Source: an uncultured Chloroflexia bacterium
GTDB lineage: Bacteria; Chloroflexota; Limnocylindria; Limnocylindrales; CSP1-4
Direction: 5' to 3'
NCBI GenBank assembly: GCA_963746845.1
Contig: CAVVCZ010000006.1
Location: 1-64,000, forward strand
DNA: 64,000 nt
Numbering within the stretch: position 1 is the first letter of the stretch; each line of letters starts with the position of its first letter. Below are positions 1 through 51,007 of the stretch, in pieces. Both the position numbers and the translations under genes were made by a program. The notes below the pieces were generated by a model. That model had not been told where the DNA came from. It worked only from the letters and a program-made list of their open reading frames with translations, and ran no database searches.

Positions 1-3000
1 GGCCGGTCAGTTCCAAGTTGATCGACGGACGATTGTTAAGCGCCTTGGCCAGGGCGGCGACTTTAGTCTGAGCGGTTTGATTCAAGTTGGCGCGGCCGTT
101 GTCGAATTCAACATAACTTAACTCGTCGCCGCTGCCACTGCCGCCGCTGAACACCGCGCCGAGCAGAGAGAAGGGTGCGGTGACCGCCTTGGTAAGAATG
201 TTGACGATGATGCGCCAGATGATGCCACCGACGCTGAACTGCGGATCGTCCAGCGACCCGCTGATCGGCAGATCGATATCGATGACACCATCGCGGTCTT
301 TTAACAATGCCACGGCAAGCAACACCGGTAGTTTAGTGGCATCGGGGCTTTCGATTCTTTCGCCGAAAGTGAGCTGGTTTAAGATGATTTTGTTTTCGGC
401 GGTCAACCTGCGATTCTCAAGTTTGTATTTGACGTTGAACGAAAGCTTGCCTTTCTCGATGCCGTAGCCGACGTAGCGCCCCGAATAGGGAGTCATCGGG
501 CTCAGCTCGATCTCCTTGGCATCGGCGACGATGTCGAGAAATAAGTCTTTCGAGAGTGGGTTGAGCTTGCCTTTAATTTCGACCGGGGCGGCGTTGTCGA
601 GCCGGGCTTTGATATCTAGATCGCCGGGCGCTTCCGGTTTGAGCTCGGAAATCGTTCCCTGAACGCCGGTGAGATTAGCGTTGTAGTTGGGCTTGATGAA
701 AAGGTCGCTGAAGTCAATGTTGCCCGCAGTCAAGTTAATCTTGCCGATGGTAATCGCTTTCTCTTCGGCTGCGGCGGAGGGAGCCGCGGGTGCTGGCTTG
801 TCCGGTGTTTTTGCCTCCGGCGCTTTCGCCGTGGTTTTTTCCGGCGCCGGCTCGGCTTTCTTATCCTGGCTTTCGGGCGTGAGCTTTTGCAAATTCATTT
901 TGCCGTCGGCGCCGAGGATCAAGCGGGAGTAGAAATCGCCGAGATTGATTTCGCCGATGCTTAATTTGAAAGGTTCGAGGTTGAACTGAAGGGCGTTTAA
1001 GTTGAGCGATTTCCACTTGAGCAGGTCGTTGGAGTTGCTTTTTTCCACGGTCGCAAAGTCGGTGATGTCGACGCTGCCGTCGTAGTTGACTTTGGCCGGG
1101 CCGTCGCCGCTGGTATCAAAAATTAGATTACCCTTGGTGCCAATACTACCGCTGGTGAACAAGAAGTTAACTCGGTCCTCCACATAAGGCCAAAATGGCA
1201 GGACGTCAATCCCCTGAGCATCGACTTCCAGCCGGCCTGTAACGGGCCGAGTTCCCACAGTTCCGGCAAATTTCAAGGTCCCTTTGTCGTTGATTGTGGC
1301 TTGGAACGTCGCTTTGCCGCGCGACTTTTCCACGTTGGAAAAATTCTCGCCGCGTAGTGTTGTATTGGATACGACGATGCGCGCCGGTGCCGCCAGGGAG
1401 CGATCATCGTAAACAATTCTATAACGGTTGAAAGCGACGCGCTTAGTGAGCACGGTCCAGGACGCCTGTTCTGCTTTCACCGGCTGTTTGGTTGCGCTTT
1501 CAGGACCGCGCGTCTTGAGCAGGCGGGCGTAGCTGATCGTCCCGTCCTTTTCCCGTTGGACATAGCCGTTGCCATCCTGGGTTTCCACGGACCCAATAAC
1601 GACCGAACGCTTGCCGACGTCAACCGTGGTGTCTTTTACGGTCAGGAGCGGAACGCGCCAAAGGGGTTCGGATTCTCCCGGCACGTCCATGCGCAATGTT
1701 CGCAGCGCCGCGTTCAGCTCGGAAAGTTTTATCTCCGGCTCGTCCGCTTTCTGCGCGAAGGCAACCTGAGTCGTAAGGTCGAGAAGTCCGTCCTTGAATT
1801 CGACTCCGAGCAAGTCTTCGTAATACGGGCGGAGTTTCTTGAGTTGCAGTGCCCGGATTTCCAATTTGCCGTCTGCCAGCAGCGGCGTCAGTTGGACGGT
1901 GCCGGCGTGAGAGAATGTTTCTTTTGCGTCAGATTCAAACGACAGTTCGACATTGGCCTTTTTATCGGCTTCATTGCTGAGCCCCGTGACTTTGAGGCGG
2001 ACATTGTCGAGGCGTGTCTTGTAGGGCTGCTGCGGCTGTTCGTCAATGAAGTGGATCGTCGCGCCATCGAGGGCGAACTCCTCGATTTGATAGATGAACG
2101 GCTTGGCGTCGTCTTTTTTTGCCGGGGCCGGCTGGCTGTTGGCCGACGGCGTCACCAGATTGGCCAGGTTCAATTCGCCCTTGCGGTCGATTGCGACATG
2201 GACTTCGAGGCCCTGGGACTTCACCGACTTGAGCGCCAGCTTGCTGTTGAAAACCTCGAAGGCGCCGACCACGACATCGAAGTTGGGCAGCTTGAGCAGC
2301 GGCGCGGCGCTCGGTCTGCTGCATCTCCAGCGCGTTCACGTTGAGATCGCCGGACAGCGCCAATACCGGCCCGGTTTTCGGGCCCGACTTGAAGCTAGCG
2401 GTGACCTTGCCGTTGAGTTGTCCCGACGGCACTTTGAAATTCAGCGCCACCGGCGAGTATTCCAAATACTTGGCGATCTCCAGTTTGTCGAGTTTGATGC
2501 TCAGCGTGCTTTCGAGAGAGTCCTTAAAGGGGGTGGTCGAATCGCCGGTAAGGTGAAACGGCGCGCCGTTGATCATCGCTGAGAACTCCGGCTTGATCTT
2601 GATCTCGACATCGGCCGGCAGGCTCGAGATAAACGGCACGCCGATTTTGAGCGCCGTGATCGCGTGCTTGGTCTGTTCGGGCTGGTCGTCGAAATCGATC
2701 TTGCCGTCGATGATTTGGATGTTGTTCAAAGCGAATCTCGGCGTCGGTCCGGAGGGGCCGGACGTGAATTCGTCGATCAGGTCTTGGAAGTTGTATTTGA
2801 GATCCTGATGGCGCACCAAGTTGATATAGGGTTTCACCAAACGCAGCTCTTTGATCACCGGCGCCAGGCGAATCAGCGACCTGAATTCAAGATTGACGAA
2901 CAGCTCGTCGAAGGACAGTGCCGGCGTTTGGCCCTGCTTCTCCTGCATCAGGAAGCCGCGCACCGTGACGGTGAGGTTGTAGGGATTGATCCTGATCTGC

Positions 3001-10162: not shown

Positions 10163-10191
10163 TTGACAGAGAAAAGCCACTTTCGTAAACT
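10163..10191 (+). promoter_or_regulatory. strong sigma70-type promoter with AT-rich upstream element
   Basis: TTGACA (10163-68), 17 nt spacer, TAAACT (10186-91); A/T tract at ~10125-10145. Confidence 0.8.
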
Positions 10192-10223
10192 AACGATCAG
10201 CAGGGAAAGGAGGTGGTCCAGAC

Positions 10224-10265
10224 ATGATTGATTTAAGTACTGGCTGTGAGGTGGCTGAGACTTAG
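10224..10265 (+). CDS. 13-aa small ORF MIDLSTGCEVAET
   Basis: ATG at 10224 and TAG at 10263-65, preceded by AAAGGAGGTG Shine-Dalgarno. Confidence 0.6.
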   Translation: MIDLSTGCEVAET

Positions 10266-10333
10266 GCTCTAGGCGGCGACTCTGAATGGAGATTCGGGCC
10301 TAGAGCCTGAGAATCTCCCTCAGCCACCGCAGT

Positions 10334-10385
10334 GGCCCGCTGCACCGGTCGCGCAAGCTGCCGAGTGTAGCGGGCCTTTTATTTT
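10334..10385 (+). terminator. intrinsic terminator
   Basis: ggcccgctgcac/gtgtagcgggcc stem followed by ttttattttt. Confidence 0.8.
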
Positions 10386-11083
10386 TGCAGCATTTTAAGT
10401 GCCGCATCGGCGCTCTTTTTGATCTGCCCATTGCCGTTCCGGCTCGCTTCGTTCAACGCCCGCATAAATTCTTCATCCGGCGACCCTAGACTAGCCAGGG
10501 TTACGGCGACTACGTTCTTCACGCGGTCATCTGCATCATGCAAATAAGTAGCTAGAAGCTTTTGCCGGACGGCGGCATCGACATCGGTTCTCACTTTCAG
10601 ACTGGTAGCGGCGGCAACGCGCACTGTCGGTTCTTCGTCGTCCAACGCCTTCAACATTGCTCGCCGGCTCTCAGCGTCGTGCAAAGCTAAGTCGCGCAGG
10701 CAGTAGAGCGCCATGCGTTTCTGATTGGCGCTGCCAGTCACGCACAGTTCTACCAGCAGCGGGACCACGGCGCCTTCCTGCTGGGCGATGCGCACGAGCA
10801 GCAGGCCGTTGGCCCAGCGAATATCCGGTTCGCGGTGATCGAGGGCGTCGAGCAGCGTGCGAATCACAACTCCCGAAGGCTGGGCTTGATGGCCGAGAAT
10901 GTAAGCGACCGGCCAATAGTTTCTGTGATCCGCTTCGCTGAGGCGATTATGGAGGGCTTGTCTTAGAGTTTCGGAAGTCTCGGCCAATGCGATGAGCTTG
11001 TCGACGGCGGCGCGGATCGTTGGCTTGTCGGGATGATCGAGGGCGGCGATGAGATCGGTAATCTCGCGTGGCTCGGTTGCCAT
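10379..11083 (-). CDS. HEAT-repeat protein
   Basis: Repeated helical motifs LIAALDHPDKPTIRAA, LLDALDHREPDIRWA, LKALDDEEPTVRVAAA. Confidence 0.8.
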   Translation of the reverse strand: MATEPREITDLIAALDHPDKPTIRAAVDKLIALAETSETLRQALHNRLSEADHRNYWPVAYILGHQAQPSGVVIRTLLDALDHREPDIRWANGLLLVRIAQQEGAVVPLLVELCVTGSANQKRMALYCLRDLALHDAESRRAMLKALDDEEPTVRVAAATSLKVRTDVDAAVRQKLLATYLHDADDRVKNVVAVTLASLGSPDEEFMRALNEASRNGNGQIKKSADAALKMLQK

Positions 11084-47276: not shown

Positions 47277-48030
47277 TCGACTATCCACCCGCCAACAGAT
47301 ATCTGCTCACGATTGGAAAAATTTATCGGCGGCGTCGATATGGACCCAATGGCCGGTGTTGGCGGACGACCAGGCCATTCGGGAAGCGCTCGCGGATTTC
47401 CGGAATGTTTGTCATGGGCAATGAAATTTGACCGGCCCGCTCGAATGAAGCAAGTTTGGCTAGAGACGGCGCCATCGGCGCTGAACGCTTCAGTAAGCGC
47501 ATCATAATTTGCGATAATCTCTTCCAAGCCGATGCGCCAATGGAATCATGCATCCGTACCGCAGGCGAGATTGGCAATCAAGAACTGGCGTAGCGTCGGT
47601 TCCGGAATGTTTCCTGTGTGCGCCCGGTCGGCGTCGCTGGAGGTCTACCCGCTTGCGAGCGTAAGCGCCTCTAGGCGGCAGCGGGCTTATGCGCGGCGGG
47701 CTTCGGGCGCGATGTCGACTACGACTAGCCCATTGATGGAACTGGCGTTGACCGCGGCGCATTGCCGGGCCACCTTGCCGACCATGGAGTGGCCGCATAG
47801 ATGGGCACGATCGAGTTCTCGCGGCAAAAAATTCTCTCACATCCTTCGCCATGGCGCATGATGCGTCACCGGATGATGCGCTGAGGCGCCGTGATTTCTC
47901 AAATCTAAATCATAGACTTTGAAGTAGACAGCGAGCCGCTTGACGATGGCGCGCCAATTGTCGGTCGCGCCGAGAAAGCCTGCAGGGTGATCCTCGGGAC
48001 ACCGATCCCTTGGACTTGGAAGTTGAGACG
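47273..48030 (-). pseudogene. degraded YbfF-like alpha/beta esterase
   Basis: Fragments GFLGATDNWR, LDLRNHGAS, MAKDV, GHSMVGKVA, VVVDIAP, FIRAGRSNFI in several frames. Confidence 0.7.
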
Positions 48031-48214
48031 GATGGTTCTGGTTGTGGCGGGCGGCCGACGAAACTCTGCCAAGATCGGGAGCAAGGAAGCGCCGCGAGGC
48101 GCTCAAGTTCGAAGAGAGTTGCGAAGGAATCGTTGAGGCGGGGGGTTAACAACGCGCTGGCGATCGCAAAGGAGAGTAGCGCTAGTATGTCGGTTGCCGT
48201 GAAACGAGCCGTGA

Positions 48215-49780
48215 TCAGCCGCCGACTCGCGCCACGGCGTCGCCGCGGATATATCCTGGCGGCCGGCCATGTTTGGAGTGAATCTCCAGCCAGCCATCGC
48301 GGGAGTTGACGACGTTTACTTTAAGGCCGGCTTCGATCTCGCCCAGTTGCTGGGCAAACTCTGTAGGCGCGGCGAAGACCCGGGTGCTGCGAGTGACTTC
48401 GTAAGTGCCCGCGGCTGCCTCCGGCTGTATTTTGGTTTGTCTTGCCGGGTGCGCCGTCGCTGTCTCGTTGGCCTTGCCGACCGGGGTCGCCGAAGCGACC
48501 GCATCGCCAGCGGGCGCGCGCTTCAGTTGGACCGGCGTCGGCGCGGCTTTTTTCTCCGGACCGGCTAGCGCCAACGGTTTGGCGGCGTGGATAACCGGCT
48601 GCTCGCCGCTCTGGCTCCAGAACAGCGCCGCCATGGCAGCGCACACCACCAGGGCAATCAAAGCGTGGAAGATACCGAGGCCGCGTTTGGCCTGGGGTGC
48701 TAATTCTTGGTTGACGGGGTCGGTACGGACCGATGCCGTCGCGGCATGGTGGCTGTCGCTACCGTTGTTTGACGCCGCCATGTGCAGCAACGCTGCCGGC
48801 GCGACCGTGTCCGGCTCGGATTGGAGATCGAATAATGTCGGCGCGGCAATGGTGCCGTCGTGGGACGCCGAGATAAATTGCGCGAAGGCTTTTAGCTCGC
48901 CATGATAGGCGCGTTGATGCTCGATGATCGAGCTTTGTTTGGCGACCAGCTGATCGTAAACCGGCTGCAGGGCGAGCAGGCGATGCTTGATTTCTTCGCT
49001 GGCGGCGATCCGCTCTTGCCATTGAGGAATCTCATCCTCGCGCCGCCGCAGTGAGTCGCGCAGCTCGCGCTCCAGCTTCTCCGATTCGCGGATGCGCTGC
49101 TGCAGAGTGTCGAGCTGGCGGGTGATTTCGGCGCCGGCGCGCAAGTCTTTTTCCAACTCGGCGATTCTCGCCTGGAGCCTTTGGCTTTCTTCCTGGTGGC
49201 TGGCTTCGTTGGCGCTCGCATCGGCCACGGGCGTAGGCGAGTTTTCCAGTTGGCGAACTTTTGACTGGCTTTTTTCCAATTGCTGTTTCAAATCGATGAG
49301 CGCGTTTTCCAACTGCGTCTGCCGTTCGCCGGCGCCACTGTCGACGACGCTGGCATTCTGGACTTTAGCTTCGCTCTCCTGCAGCTGGCGGCGCAGCTCT
49401 TGCACTCGAGCGTCGAGTTGGGTGTTGGCGCTGCGTAACTGTTCCACCTGGGCGAGTGTCGTGTCGTTTTCGGCCGCGGGCTTGCCGGTGCGAAGTTCGT
49501 CGATGGCCCGGTGGGCGGCTTCCAAATCGTCTTGCAACAAGGCCATTTCTTTTTTCAGCTCTTGGTTATTGGCGCGCAGGCCGGTGACCTCGGCGCCGTT
49601 GCCGCCGGCTTCGCTGCTCGCCGGGGCGGACGCCATTGGGGCGTCTTCCAAGCGGGTCAAAAGGTCGTTGATTTCGCCGCGTTTTTTCTTGAGCTCTTTC
49701 TCGGACGCGACCAAGAATAGGCCGAGCAACAGTACCGTCGCTCCTGAAAACAATACGATCCAGAGGAACATGCTCTCCAT
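48215..49780 (-). CDS. membrane-anchored long coiled-coil protein with second TM and C-terminal SH3-like domain
   Basis: N-terminal TM, heptad-rich middle, TM IFHALIALVVCAAMAALFW, VNVVNSRDGWLEI...PGYI. Confidence 0.8.
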   Translation of the reverse strand: MESMFLWIVLFSGATVLLLGLFLVASEKELKKKRGEINDLLTRLEDAPMASAPASSEAGGNGAEVTGLRANNQELKKEMALLQDDLEAAHRAIDELRTGKPAAENDTTLAQVEQLRSANTQLDARVQELRRQLQESEAKVQNASVVDSGAGERQTQLENALIDLKQQLEKSQSKVRQLENSPTPVADASANEASHQEESQRLQARIAELEKDLRAGAEITRQLDTLQQRIRESEKLERELRDSLRRREDEIPQWQERIAASEEIKHRLLALQPVYDQLVAKQSSIIEHQRAYHGELKAFAQFISASHDGTIAAPTLFDLQSEPDTVAPAALLHMAASNNGSDSHHAATASVRTDPVNQELAPQAKRGLGIFHALIALVVCAAMAALFWSQSGEQPVIHAAKPLALAGPEKKAAPTPVQLKRAPAGDAVASATPVGKANETATAHPARQTKIQPEAAAGTYEVTRSTRVFAAPTEFAQQLGEIEAGLKVNVVNSRDGWLEIHSKHGRPPGYIRGDAVARVGG

Positions 49781-49825
49781 AGCGATCTCCCGTCGAGTTT
49801 GAGGCTGAATTTGATGACTGAATAA

Positions 49826-49841
49826 CGCTAAACTCATGCCA
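49826..49841 (-). promoter_or_regulatory. putative sigma54 -24/-12 promoter
   Basis: Minus strand TGGCATGAGTTTAGCG (GG-N10-GC). Confidence 0.5.
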
Positions 49842-50099
49842 CTTGACGCAAGGCTAGTTACCTAGAGACAAGCAAGGTAGTTCCGGAGATCATTCGATAC
49901 TTTGCCAGACAGTTTTCCGGGTATTCCGGCTGAACAGAGCTGCACAAATCGGTGAATCGTTACGAAAACTGTTTAGCTATGTCTGCGTTGCCCGCGGCAG
50001 CAGCGCTGGTTCCGAGGAAAAAAACTCGCATCGTCTGGCAGATCGCTGGCGCTATGAGCGTCGTTGGGCTAAGAAAAATTACCCCAAGATGTCCTTCCA

Positions 50100-51007
50100 T
50101 GATCCCGCAATCTCAAACCGCCACGCCGCCAAAGAATCTATCCATCGCCGAAGAGCGGGCGATCCTTTCGGTGACCTGTCTGGCGGCGTTTCTATTCTTC
50201 AACAGTTTTGGCAGCATCAGCGTCGCCCTACCGGCGATTCAGAAACAATTTGGCAATAGTTTGTCGGAGATTCAGTGGGTCACGCTGATGGGCGTGGTGA
50301 CGATCTCCAGCTTGTCGTTCTGTTTCGGCCGTGCCGGCGGTATTCTCGGCCAGCGCCGGCTCTACAAGATCGGTGTGGCGCTTTATGCCGCCGGCGCCGG
50401 CTTGGGCGCGCTGGCGCTGTCGTTTCCACAGCTGCTGATCGCGCGCGCGGTGATGGCGGTTGGGCTGGCGATGGCGTTGCCGATGTCGACGGCGTTGTTG
50501 GCCGGCAGTTTCGCCGCCGCGCGGCGCGGCCAGGTGCTGGGCACCTTCGCCTCGGCTATCGCCGTCGGGCGCATGTCTGGGCCGACCGTCGGCGGCTTGC
50601 TCTTACAAATGGGCGGCTGGACCTGGATCTTCTGGATGAATTTTGTCGTCGGCTTGGCGGTGACGTTGGCGGTGGTGAAAATTTTTCGCGGCGCCGGCGA
50701 GCAACGGCCGGAGAAATTCGACATCTGGGGCTCGTTGGCCTTACTGCTTGGCTATCCGTCGCTGTTGATCGGCTTGAGTTTTGGCGCCCGCCTCGGTTGG
50801 AGTTCGTTGCCGGTGATCCTGTGCTTTGCCGTCGCCACGATTGGGCTGGTGGGTTTCGTCGGCATCGAACTGCGCACCGCGAAGCCGTTGGTCGATGTGG
50901 CGATTTTTCGCAATAAAATGCTGTCCGCGGCTATCGTCGCGCTGATCCTCAGTCATATGCTCCACAATCCGATCGCCTTGGCGGCGCCGCTTTATTTGCA
51001 AAACGTG
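50100..51007 (+). CDS. DHA2/EmrB-like MFS transporter, truncated at junction
   Basis: VALPAIQKQF, GILGQRR, GPTVGGLL, WIFWMN; stops after PLYLQNV. Confidence 0.85.

What the first reader, a model, noticed from the sequence alone, without database searches (positions are those of the whole stretch)
10205..10226. 16-nt complement to the 16S rRNA 3' end: possible ribosome-trapping RNA
AAAGGAGGTGGTCCAG (10206-21) can pair at all 16 positions (one G-U) with the conserved 16S tail 5'-CUGGAUCACCUCCUUU-3', and it closely resembles the 1541R primer AAGGAGGTGATCCAG. Ordinary SD duplexes are much shorter, and this one would reach toward helix 45. Such a leader on a 13-codon ORF could sequester or stall 30S/70S particles (hibernation or translation throttle) or act in 16S 3'-end maturation. 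Flanking bases do not continue as rRNA sequence. Function is inference.
Basis: partly seen in the sequence, partly recalled or inferred. Interest (0 to 1): 0.8.

Follow-up and report, generated by a model that had tools for sequence, protein, structure and literature searches.

The report
Small mRNA with 18-nt Shine-Dalgarno
This is a free-standing gene for a roughly 190-base messenger RNA that encodes a 13-residue peptide and starts with an 18-base stretch able to pair with the whole free tail of 16S ribosomal RNA; it belongs to a little-studied kind of ribosome-binding mini-mRNA whose job is still unknown.

Summary
AAAGGAGGTGGTCCAG (10206-10221) pairs at 16 of 16 positions with the 16S tail, and at 18 of 18 from 10204. 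It is the only such site in the 3.56-Mb assembly apart from the 16S gene itself.

It sits about 5 nt from the 5' end of a self-contained unit: sigma-70 promoter, 13-codon sORF (MIDLSTGCEVAET), a covariation-supported hairpin and a terminator. The unit aligns end to end with Rfam RF02471 (Ms_IGR-5, an actinobacterial "sRNA") at 42 bits against a cut-off of 45.

Homologues keep the distal GGTCC, although the search pattern did not require it. The 18 positions vary almost only as A/G opposite a 16S U. G opposite C never varies. This indicates selection for pairing along the whole tail.

The closest described kind is rreB/rreR of alpha-proteobacteria (Hahn 2017). Those small mRNAs have 16-17-nt SDs, bind 30S and are weakly translated; their function is unknown. 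"Ribosome trapping" remains unshown.

The window's first ~51 kb belongs to a different organism from the rest of the assembly, which explains why the element is missing from that assembly's relatives.

Verdict: new member of a known kind, moderate interest.

The parts
10163..10191 (+). Sigma-70-type promoter: -35 TTGACA (10163-10168), 17-nt spacer, -10 TAAACT (10186-10191). The predicted 5' end is near 10199.
   Evidence: scores it 10 of 12 matches. The same -35 and -10 boxes, with varying spacer sequence, stand at the same distance in the 25 loci of the window's subfamily shown. The Rfam alignment starts at 10199. The 5' end itself is inferred.
10204..10221 (+). Extended Shine-Dalgarno, GGAAAGGAGGTGGTCCAG, complementary to the 16S tail CUGGAUCACCUCCUUUCU.
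   Evidence: It is unpaired in the minimum-free-energy fold.
10224..10265 (+). sORF of 13 codons plus TAG, encoding MIDLSTGCEVAET.
   Evidence: Homologues have in-frame starts, in-frame 3-nt indels and a fixed stop position with TAG, TGA or TAA.
10248..10254 (+). Second SD-like motif GAGGTGG inside the sORF (the Glu-Val codons). The stop codon is always the fifth codon after the GAG. The motif is also the 5' arm of the base of the long hairpin.
   Evidence: The motif and its spacing to the stop are kept in 28 of 28 diverse actinomycetotal loci (GAAGAGGTG in one). They are also kept in all loci displayed. Pairing to CAGCCACC is shown.
10244..10332 (+). Long imperfect hairpin. It encloses the 3' third of the sORF and the stop codon.
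   Evidence: Fold: whole RNA -96.7 kcal/mol, z = -6.1, 0 of 200 shuffles fold as well. Compensatory changes are seen (helices 3, 5 and 6).
10334..10386 (+). Intrinsic terminator: hairpin 10334-10376, then a U-rich tract 10377-10386.
   Evidence: Helices 7 and 8 have 9 of 12 pairs with changes on both sides. The simple scan missed it because its loop is too long for that scan.
10379..11083 (-). Convergent HEAT-repeat protein gene (234 aa). Its stop codon abuts the terminator. It is a conserved neighbour and is not shown to be part of the mechanism.
   Evidence: Pfam HEAT_2, E = 2.5e-11. A homologue (36-81% identity) lies convergently just downstream in 11 of 13 other subfamily loci examined.

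Best explanation
Window 10199-10386 is a free-standing gene for a small mRNA of the rre type, and a homologue of Rfam Ms_IGR-5.

The RNA begins about 5 nt before an 18-nt stretch that can pair with the entire single-stranded 3' tail of 16S rRNA, plus the last three pairs of helix 45. This stretch is unpaired in the predicted fold. It most likely serves as a very high-affinity docking site for a 30S subunit. The start codon of a 13-codon sORF then lies 10 nt after the GGAGG core.

The sORF is translated. By analogy with rreB this is probably inefficient, because a -32 kcal/mol duplex slows departure from the start site. Its last third and its stop codon lie inside a conserved hairpin. A second SD-like GAGGUGG stands a fixed five codons before the stop.

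Shown here: the anatomy, the homology, and selection on pairing, reading frame and hairpins. Shown by others for relatives: 30S binding and weak translation of rreB, and ribosome footprints on Ms_IGR-5. Inferred: that this RNA binds 30S in the same way, that translation is throttled, and any cellular role. The physiological function is unknown for the whole kind.
For: Anatomy: promoter, unpaired 5' SD, hairpin and terminator (z = -6.1), sORF.

Homology: full-length alignment to RF02471 positions 1-184 at 42.0 bits, E = 3.6e-8.

Homologues: a pattern anchored on the sORF, which left the distal SD free, found 104 loci. Of these, 93 are Actinomycetota and 11 are of the window's type. GGTCC is kept in 102 of 104.

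Pairing signature, in 28 diverse actinomycetotal loci. Positions opposite a 16S U vary A/G: p1 G7/A19, p3 G7/A21, p13 G25/A3, p17 G12/A13/C3. G opposite C is kept in 168 of 168 cells. The contiguous duplex is 16-18 nt in 27 of 28 of these loci, in 92 of 93 A-type loci, and is 18 nt in 11 of 12 B-type loci.

Perfect matches: three loci of a sister subfamily carry the perfect 18-nt complement AGAAAGGAGGTGATCCAG.

16S tails: the tails of the actinomycetotal hosts and of G341-343 are identical.

Coding signature: an in-frame NTG lies 1-6 nt after GGTCC in 26 of 28 loci, and the stop is the fifth codon after GAG in 28 of 28, as TAG, TGA or TAA. Only 3-nt indels occur in the sORF of 23 aligned B-type RNAs.

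Structure: 96.8% of cells are paired, 15 of 41 pairs show changes on both sides, 0 of 500 shuffles reach this, and slid controls reach 54% or less.

RNA libraries: one contig of 199-254 nt in each of 4 metatranscriptome runs from 4 studies covers 10207/10209 to 10380/10461. All four left ends fall at 10207-10209, which is a weak hint of a nearby 5' end.

Precedent: rreB (PMC5711450, abstract and sections 13, 14, 18, 19 read). Ribo-seq reads on Ms_IGR-5 homologues (PMC4974804, one passage).
Against: The Rfam score is below the family's gathering cut-off (42 against 45 bits).

The homologue sets are biased towards the consensus. The scan fixed GGAGGTG and parts of the sORF. The 28 loci came from a covariance-model search and were anchored with a regular expression, although none of the 28 failed it. 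Related sequences are not independent.

Two of 28 loci have no in-frame NTG start. The Glu-Val codons are invariant as GAG GTG, which is an RNA-level constraint, so part of the apparent peptide conservation is not evidence of a functional peptide.

The window's start is ATG with a 2-nt gap after the complement. rreB has a GTG that overlaps the complement.

Contigs from RNA libraries cannot prove transcription, strand or ends.

No binding or translation data exist for this RNA. rreB overexpression gave no phenotype (PMC5711450, section 19), so the mechanism has no known consequence.
Confidence: 0.72

Rival explanations
1. It is an ordinary small-protein gene. The 13-residue peptide is the only functional product. 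Many relatives carry a CxxC motif, for example MIDKCTDCEVAET. On this view the very long SD merely secures efficient or stress-proof translation.
For: The coding signature. CxxC is seen in many B-type relatives (strings). Extended SD helices are used for normal initiation in S. aureus (PMC13009471, passages seen).
Against: The window's own peptide lacks the first Cys, and most actinomycetotal peptides have none or one. The N-terminal halves differ freely (MIDL.., MHKP.., MYEY..), while the SD is far better kept than the peptide. In rreB the extension lowered translation rather than raising it (PMC5711450, section 19). No maturation or partner gene is shared between phyla.
Confidence: 0.17
2. 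It is a ribosome-directed riboregulator. The RNA's purpose would be to occupy the 16S tail: parking or throttling 30S or 70S particles, or sensing free subunits or the integrity of the 3' tail. The sORF would be incidental or would serve only to release the ribosome.
For: Selection for pairing over 17-18 nt, including positions that compete with helix 45. The second SD-like site is fixed five codons before the stop. rreB co-sediments with 30S (PMC5711450, section 14).
Against: According to the rreB authors, ribosomes far outnumber the RNA and overexpression did not affect growth (PMC5711450, section 19). The reading frame and stop position are conserved. There is no link to hibernation or rRNA-maturation genes in any neighbourhood examined.
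Confidence: 0.1
3. It is a chance match, a fragment of an rRNA operon, or a leader of a downstream gene.
For: None beyond the resemblance to the reverse primer site.
Against: It is the only non-rRNA 18-of-18 site in 3.56 Mb. It is conserved in over 100 loci. There is no rRNA match in the flanks. The next gene is convergent and a terminator intervenes.
Confidence: 0.01

Closest known systems
rreB / rreR small mRNAs of alpha-proteobacteria (Hahn et al. 2017, RNA Biol; PMC5711450)
   Same: A free-standing RNA of about 165-190 nt with its own RpoD-type promoter and terminator. It has 16-17 nt (here 16-18) of contiguous complementarity to the 16S 3' end directly before a 14-18-codon (here 13-codon) sORF. 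The 5' part of the complement is single-stranded and the RNA is otherwise structured. It is conserved within clades, and the genomic context is not conserved between clades.
   Different: A different phylum. The start is ATG two bases after the complement, not a GTG overlapping it, although relatives do have the overlapping GTG. One or two G-U pairs replace perfect pairing. The peptide could not be compared, because the RreB and RreR sequences are only in figures and supplements that were not visible. No binding data exist for this RNA.
Rfam RF02471, Ms_IGR-5 (Actinobacteria sRNA)
   Same: End-to-end alignment with the model (positions 1-184). It shares the 5' GGAAGGAGGUGGUCC, the sORF (mycobacterial MIDLWTCEVAAS against MIDLSTGCEVAET here), GAGGUGGCUG, the closing CAG.CACC arm and the terminator.
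   Different: It scores 42.0 bits, under the 45-bit cut-off. The host is not an actinobacterium. There is one extra codon, and the apical part of the hairpin differs. In the held library I found no text describing Ms_IGR-5 as an mRNA with an extended SD. The original paper, PMC3527728, is not held.
Rfam RF01867, CC2171 (Caulobacter sRNA)
   Same: The family consensus begins cAAcaAucGAAAGGAGGUGAUCCAG. This is the same complement to the 16S tail, at the same distance from the 5' end.
   Different: It scores only 13.2 bits against a cut-off of 75. Nothing beyond the 5' 25 nt and a generic hairpin aligns, so it is an analogue and not a shown homologue.
Leader-peptide transcription attenuators
   Same: A tiny ORF followed by hairpins and a terminator.
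   Different: There is no downstream gene on the same strand: the next gene is convergent. There is no run of regulatory codons.

Membership tests
rre-type small mRNA (Hahn 2017) | At least 16 nt of contiguous complementarity to the 3' end of the host's 16S rRNA | tested here: met
   16 of 16 (18 of 18 with G-U pairs) against the tails read.
rre-type small mRNA (Hahn 2017) | The complement stands immediately before a conserved sORF of about 14-18 codons | tested here: met
   A 13-codon sORF starts 2 nt after the complement. In relatives the complement overlaps a GTG start.
rre-type small mRNA (Hahn 2017) | Free-standing small transcript with its own promoter and terminator | tested here: met
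   Predicted promoter and terminator. Short contigs in 4 RNA libraries span it. The ends were not mapped experimentally.
rre-type small mRNA (Hahn 2017) | Weak GTG start codon | tested here: not met
   The window has ATG. The authors themselves note an ATG in Azospirillum (PMC5711450, section 18). Relatives use GTG, TTG or CTG.
rre-type small mRNA (Hahn 2017) | Strong association with 30S subunits; weak translation | not testable with these tools
   Needs gradients, toeprints and reporter fusions.
Rfam RF02471 Ms_IGR-5 | Bit score at or above the gathering cut-off of 45 | tested here: not met
   42.0 bits, E = 3.6e-8, model positions 1-184. Two sister loci score 37.7 and 34.4 bits.
Rfam RF02471 Ms_IGR-5 | Shared sequence blocks and architecture with seed-like members | tested here: met
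   The same SD, sORF frame and motif, stop position, closing helix and terminator as in mycobacterial members that score 165-186 bits.
Rfam RF01867 CC2171 | Bit score at or above the gathering cut-off of 75 | tested here: not met
   13.2 bits.
Leader-peptide attenuator | A regulated gene downstream on the same strand | tested here: not met
   The next gene (10379-11083) is on the opposite strand.

The most novel reading that the evidence does not exclude
The rre genes, CC2171, Ms_IGR-5 and this Binatia-type family may be one trans-phylum class of 'anti-tail' RNAs whose selected function is to capture the complete 3' tail of 16S rRNA. This would include fraying the base of helix 45. The ribosome would then be passed to a second SD-like site fixed five codons before the stop. 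The RNA would act as a parking site for ribosomes, or as a sensor of free 30S subunits or of the integrity of the 16S 3' end, rather than mainly as a template for a peptide.
Probability: 0.12. Interest if true: 0.8.

Novelty: new member of a known kind. Interest (0 to 1): 0.5.

Why it matters
Small mRNAs with 16-17-nt Shine-Dalgarno sequences have been described once, in alpha-proteobacteria, and their function is unknown.

This locus and its relatives show that the same design exists in at least two more lineages. One is a soil clade whose records are labelled Binatia or delta-proteobacteria. The other is much of the Actinomycetota, where it is filed in Rfam as the sRNA Ms_IGR-5.

The substitution pattern (A/G only opposite a 16S U, G opposite C invariant) indicates that pairing with the whole 16S tail is what selection preserves.

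This makes an open question testable in tractable laboratory hosts such as M. smegmatis and Streptomyces. It also flags an Rfam "non-coding" family as a probable mRNA.

Tried and rejected
1. Relatives of the assembly. blastn of the element found it in 0 of 42 same-genus genomes; the one hit, L005, is a 48-nt terminator-like match. Two patterns found it in 0 of 42 same-genus genomes and 0 of 300 same-family genomes. This is not evidence of sporadic occurrence. The window's left ~51 kb belongs to another organism.

2. RF02471 in 40 relatives. The only match is a 27-bit hit in G025 (L003): a 15-codon ORF behind GAAAGGAGGTGGTGTG. Not pursued.

3. A local hairpin pairing the distal SD (GGUCC) with GGAC in the sORF. 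Best stems were 3-10 bp, against 3.4-4.8 bp for shuffled partners, in the 37 sequences printed before the script stopped on L045. This is too weak to claim. One locus (L123) has a 10-bp version with a G-C to A-U change.

4. A PafBC/RecA-NDp promoter upstream of the mycobacterial homologues. The TTGTCG box is 17 nt from TAnnnT, which is an ordinary -35/-10 arrangement. The motif itself is recalled. The PafBC paper says no sRNA has been implicated (PMC6789036, passages). Rejected.

5. Other long matches. Site 2526-2538 (13 nt) lies antisense inside a 384-aa gene. The other sites of 13 nt or more in the assembly that I looked at (5 of the 14 listed) are coding sequence or an ordinary RBS.

6. A third group (GGAGGTGATTCGAGCCATG...) has no purine run upstream and opens a 49-residue frame. 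It is unrelated.

7. Function of the HEAT neighbour. Pfam gives HEAT_2 only. NCBIfam gives nothing specific. PDB gives only designed alphaRep proteins.

8. Shared gene context between phyla: none found.

9. Read laying. The lack of cover upstream of 10207 and beyond 10461 proves nothing. No DNA run was laid beside the RNA runs.

10. The 13-residue peptide is too short for the protein search, fold and complex tools, so none was run.

12. Supplements were closed. Fig. S1 of PMC5711450 (extended rre alignments and peptides) and Dataset S2 of PMC4974804 (Ribo-seq of Ms_IGR-5) could bear on the peptide comparison and on ribosome occupancy.

Full report
OBSERVATION

AAAGGAGGTGGTCCAG stands at 10206-10221 on the + strand. 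The assembly's 16S gene ends ...GCGGCTGGATCACCTCCTTTCT. The 16-mer pairs with CUGGAUCACCUCCUUU at 16 of 16 positions, with one G-U. The two G residues before it pair with the last C and U, giving 18 of 18.

The predicted duplex energies are -32.0 kcal/mol (18-mer), -27.6 (16-mer), -19.8 (a 12-nt SD) and -8.7 (GGAGG).

In the whole 3.56-Mb assembly, only this site and the antisense strand of the 16S gene pair at all 18 positions. The sORF is ATG 10224 to TAG 10265, MIDLSTGCEVAET.

WHOSE DNA IS THIS?

The element was absent from 42 same-genus and 300 same-family genomes of the assembly. The reason is that the window is composite:
- Its first ~51 kb has 52-63% G+C. The rest of contig C6 and all other contigs have 70-72%.
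- Window 47414-51000 matches genome G341 at 97% identity, right up to position 51000. Window 51000-58000 matches nothing there.
- The flanks of the element are 72-97% identical and collinear with eleven loci from other genomes. Five of these genomes were sized, at 3.7-7.2 Mb.
- The assembly's 16S is only about 80% identical to those of G341-G343.

So the element belongs to a relative of G341. The record titles of the related loci read Candidatus Binatia or "uncultured delta proteobacterium". It does not belong to the 71%-G+C organism.

ANATOMY

- A TTGACA-17-TAAACT promoter lies at 10163-10191. It predicts a 5' end near 10199.
- Folding 10199-10386 leaves the first 19 nt, which include the SD, unpaired.
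- The start codon sits in a weak local hairpin.
- A long hairpin spans 10244-10332. It contains the last third of the sORF and the stop codon.
- A terminator hairpin spans 10334-10376 and is followed by a U-rich tract.
- The fold is -96.7 kcal/mol with z = -6.1.
- The next gene is convergent, so this is a free-standing unit.

On 23 related RNAs the structure is 96.8% paired, and 15 of 41 pairs show changes on both sides. None of 500 shuffles reaches this, and slid controls reach 54% or less. The SD region is in no supported helix.

An Rfam scan aligns the unit end to end with RF02471, Ms_IGR-5, at 42.0 bits (cut-off 45), E = 3.6e-8.

I then scanned one genome per species with a pattern that fixed only GGAGGTG and parts of the sORF. 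It returned 104 loci:
- 93 are from Actinomycetota, mostly Mycobacterium and Mycolicibacterium, plus Mumia and Microlunatus. Their sORF is TTG ATT GAC TTA TGG ACA TGT GAG GTG GCT GCG AGC TAG.
- 11 are of the window's type.
- The free bases after GGAGGTG read GTCC in 102 of 104.

RF02471 itself matched 45 of 151 sampled Actinomycetota at E <= 1e-3, with 23 over the cut-off. This is a lower bound, because only 16 candidates per genome were scored. Four of the matching genomes are unpublished.

I examined 28 of the 46 matches. Two loci were dropped because they come from unpublished genomes, and 16 matches were not fetched.

A looser pattern in 251 genomes of G341's class found three groups:
- 14 genomes with the window's subfamily.
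- 8 genomes with a sister subfamily (GTG ACG TTT TTC CCT ACG GTG ATC TGT GAG GTG GTC ...). In it, the complement overlaps the GTG start, as in rreB.
- Ordinary or chance matches, including the group checked.

Three sister loci carry the perfect 18-mer AGAAAGGAGGTGATCCAG.

WHAT SELECTION PRESERVES

I aligned the 18 positions to the tail. In the 28 diverse loci, positions opposite a 16S U vary between A and G:

| Position | Bases seen |
|---|---|
| p1 | G7 / A19 / other 2 |
| p3 | G7 / A21 |
| p4 | A25 / G3 |
| p5 | A23 / G5 |
| p13 | G25 / A3 |
| p17 | G12 / A13 / C3 |

The six positions opposite C are G in 168 of 168 cells. The two positions opposite G are C in 55 of 56 cells, and the exception is a U. 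The contiguous duplex is 16-18 nt in 27 of 28 loci.

The hosts' 16S tails are identical. A G-to-A transition is therefore tolerated only where it keeps a pair. This is what selection for pairing with the tail predicts.

Caveats: the covariance-model search and my anchoring expression favour the consensus, although no locus failed the expression. Relatives are also not independent.

Positions p16-p18 would pair with 16S nucleotides that form the last three pairs of helix 45. This rests on the sequence and on E. coli numbering that I recalled. Whether those pairs form is not known.

CODING OR NOT

In 26 of 28 diverse loci an in-frame NTG lies 1-6 nt after GGTCC. In 28 of 28 the stop is the fifth codon after GAG, and it is TAG, TGA or TAA. 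The Thr codon before it uses all four synonymous forms. The window's subfamily shows only 3-nt indels within the sORF. This is a coding signature.

Against a purely peptide-level reading:
- GAG GTG is invariant at the nucleotide level. It is a 7-nt SD-like motif and also the 5' arm of the hairpin base.
- Its partner arm covaries beyond the GGUG/CACC core.
- The N-terminal halves of the peptides differ freely.
- Many Binatia-type peptides have CxxC, but the window's own peptide does not.

EXPRESSION

Six metatranscriptome runs hold 54-65% of the sampled words of a 301-nt query. I laid four of them, from four studies. Each contains one contig of 199-254 nt covering 10207/10209 to 10380, 10402, 10458 or 10461, at 95-100% identity.

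The shared left end is a weak hint of a nearby 5' end. Contigs cannot show strand or transcription.

COMPARISON WITH WHAT IS KNOWN

Hahn et al. (PMC5711450; abstract and sections 13, 14, 18, 19 read) describe rreB:
- a 165-nt mRNA with a 17-nt perfect complement and a 14-codon GTG sORF;
- co-sedimentation with 30S;
- weak translation caused by the extension and the GTG start;
- stability that depends on the start codon;
- no growth effect on overexpression;
- analogues in four alpha-proteobacterial orders.

The consensus of Rfam CC2171 (Caulobacter) also starts with GAAAGGAGGUGAUCCAG.

Ms_IGR-5 is listed as an expressed sRNA in S. lividans and S. avermitilis (PMC8079986 and PMC8780764, passages). 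It is listed as carrying ribosome footprints in M. abscessus and M. smegmatis (PMC4974804, passage).

My searches found no text in the held library that links Ms_IGR-5 to an extended SD or to rre. The original Ms_IGR-5 paper is not held.

VERDICT

The thing is a small mRNA of the rre kind and a just-sub-threshold homologue of Ms_IGR-5, carried by a non-actinobacterial soil bacterium.

The most likely mechanism is high-affinity docking of 30S to the 5'-terminal complement with restrained translation of the sORF. This is partly inferred from rreB. Trapping, hibernation and a role in 16S maturation remain speculation.

Novelty: new member of a known kind. The added value is the cross-phylum reach and the pairing-specific substitution pattern.

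Noticed in passing
window 1-64000; junction near 51000: The window is composite. About 1-51000 has 52-63% G+C and is collinear with genome G341 (97% identity over the 47414-51000 stretch tested). From about 51000 onward it has 66-74% G+C, like all other contigs of the assembly, and has no match in G341-G343. This is either a chimeric join in the assembly or a very recent large transfer. The assembly's 16S and its 'relatives' describe a different organism from the one that carries the finding.
   Followed up: yes
window 10379-11083 (-): A HEAT-repeat protein gene lies tail to tail with the small mRNA, and its stop codon abuts the terminator. A homologue (36-81% identity) holds the same place in 11 of 13 other loci of the subfamily, while the upstream genes differ. 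No specific function was found.
   Followed up: partly
L191-L196, L166, L168 (genomes of G341's class): A sister subfamily with the same 18-nt complement, now overlapping a GTG start, and a 14-codon sORF (MTFFPTVICEVVAS or MTYSPTVICEVV..). It has a different upstream region, a GC-rich hairpin instead of the TTGACA promoter. Three loci have the perfect Watson-Crick 18-mer.
   Followed up: partly
Rfam RF01867 consensus: The Caulobacter sRNA family CC2171 begins with GAAAGGAGGUGAUCCAG. It is probably the Caulobacterales rre analogue mentioned by Hahn et al., and it is filed as a non-coding sRNA.
   Followed up: no
L003 1505-1575 (G025, a 1.2-Mb genome of the assembly's order): GAAAGGAGGTGGTGTG followed by a 15-codon ORF (MSNGSCTAASHEVSA), a 27-bit RF02471 match. 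It may be another extended-SD mini-gene in an unrelated small genome.
   Followed up: no
L114-L117, L128-L138 (Actinomycetota): In 12 of about 34 loci compared, a GcvT/YgfZ-like folate-binding protein gene lies divergently upstream of the Ms_IGR-5 homologue. Mycobacterial loci also have a class IV aminotransferase gene and a THAP4-type haem-binding protein gene beside it. None of these is shared with the window's locus.
   Followed up: partly
L124, L129, L132, L133, L137, L139, L142 (Actinomycetota): Several homologues carry, inside the long hairpin, a stretch such as GGACCACCUCC or GGAUCACCCCC. It mimics the 16S tail and could pair with the RNA's own extended SD, which hints at alternative folds. 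The window's RNA has no such stretch.
   Followed up: no
window 2526-2538 (+): A 13-nt partial complement to the 16S tail (AAAGGGGGTGGTC). It lies antisense inside a 384-aa gene and is taken as chance.
   Followed up: yes
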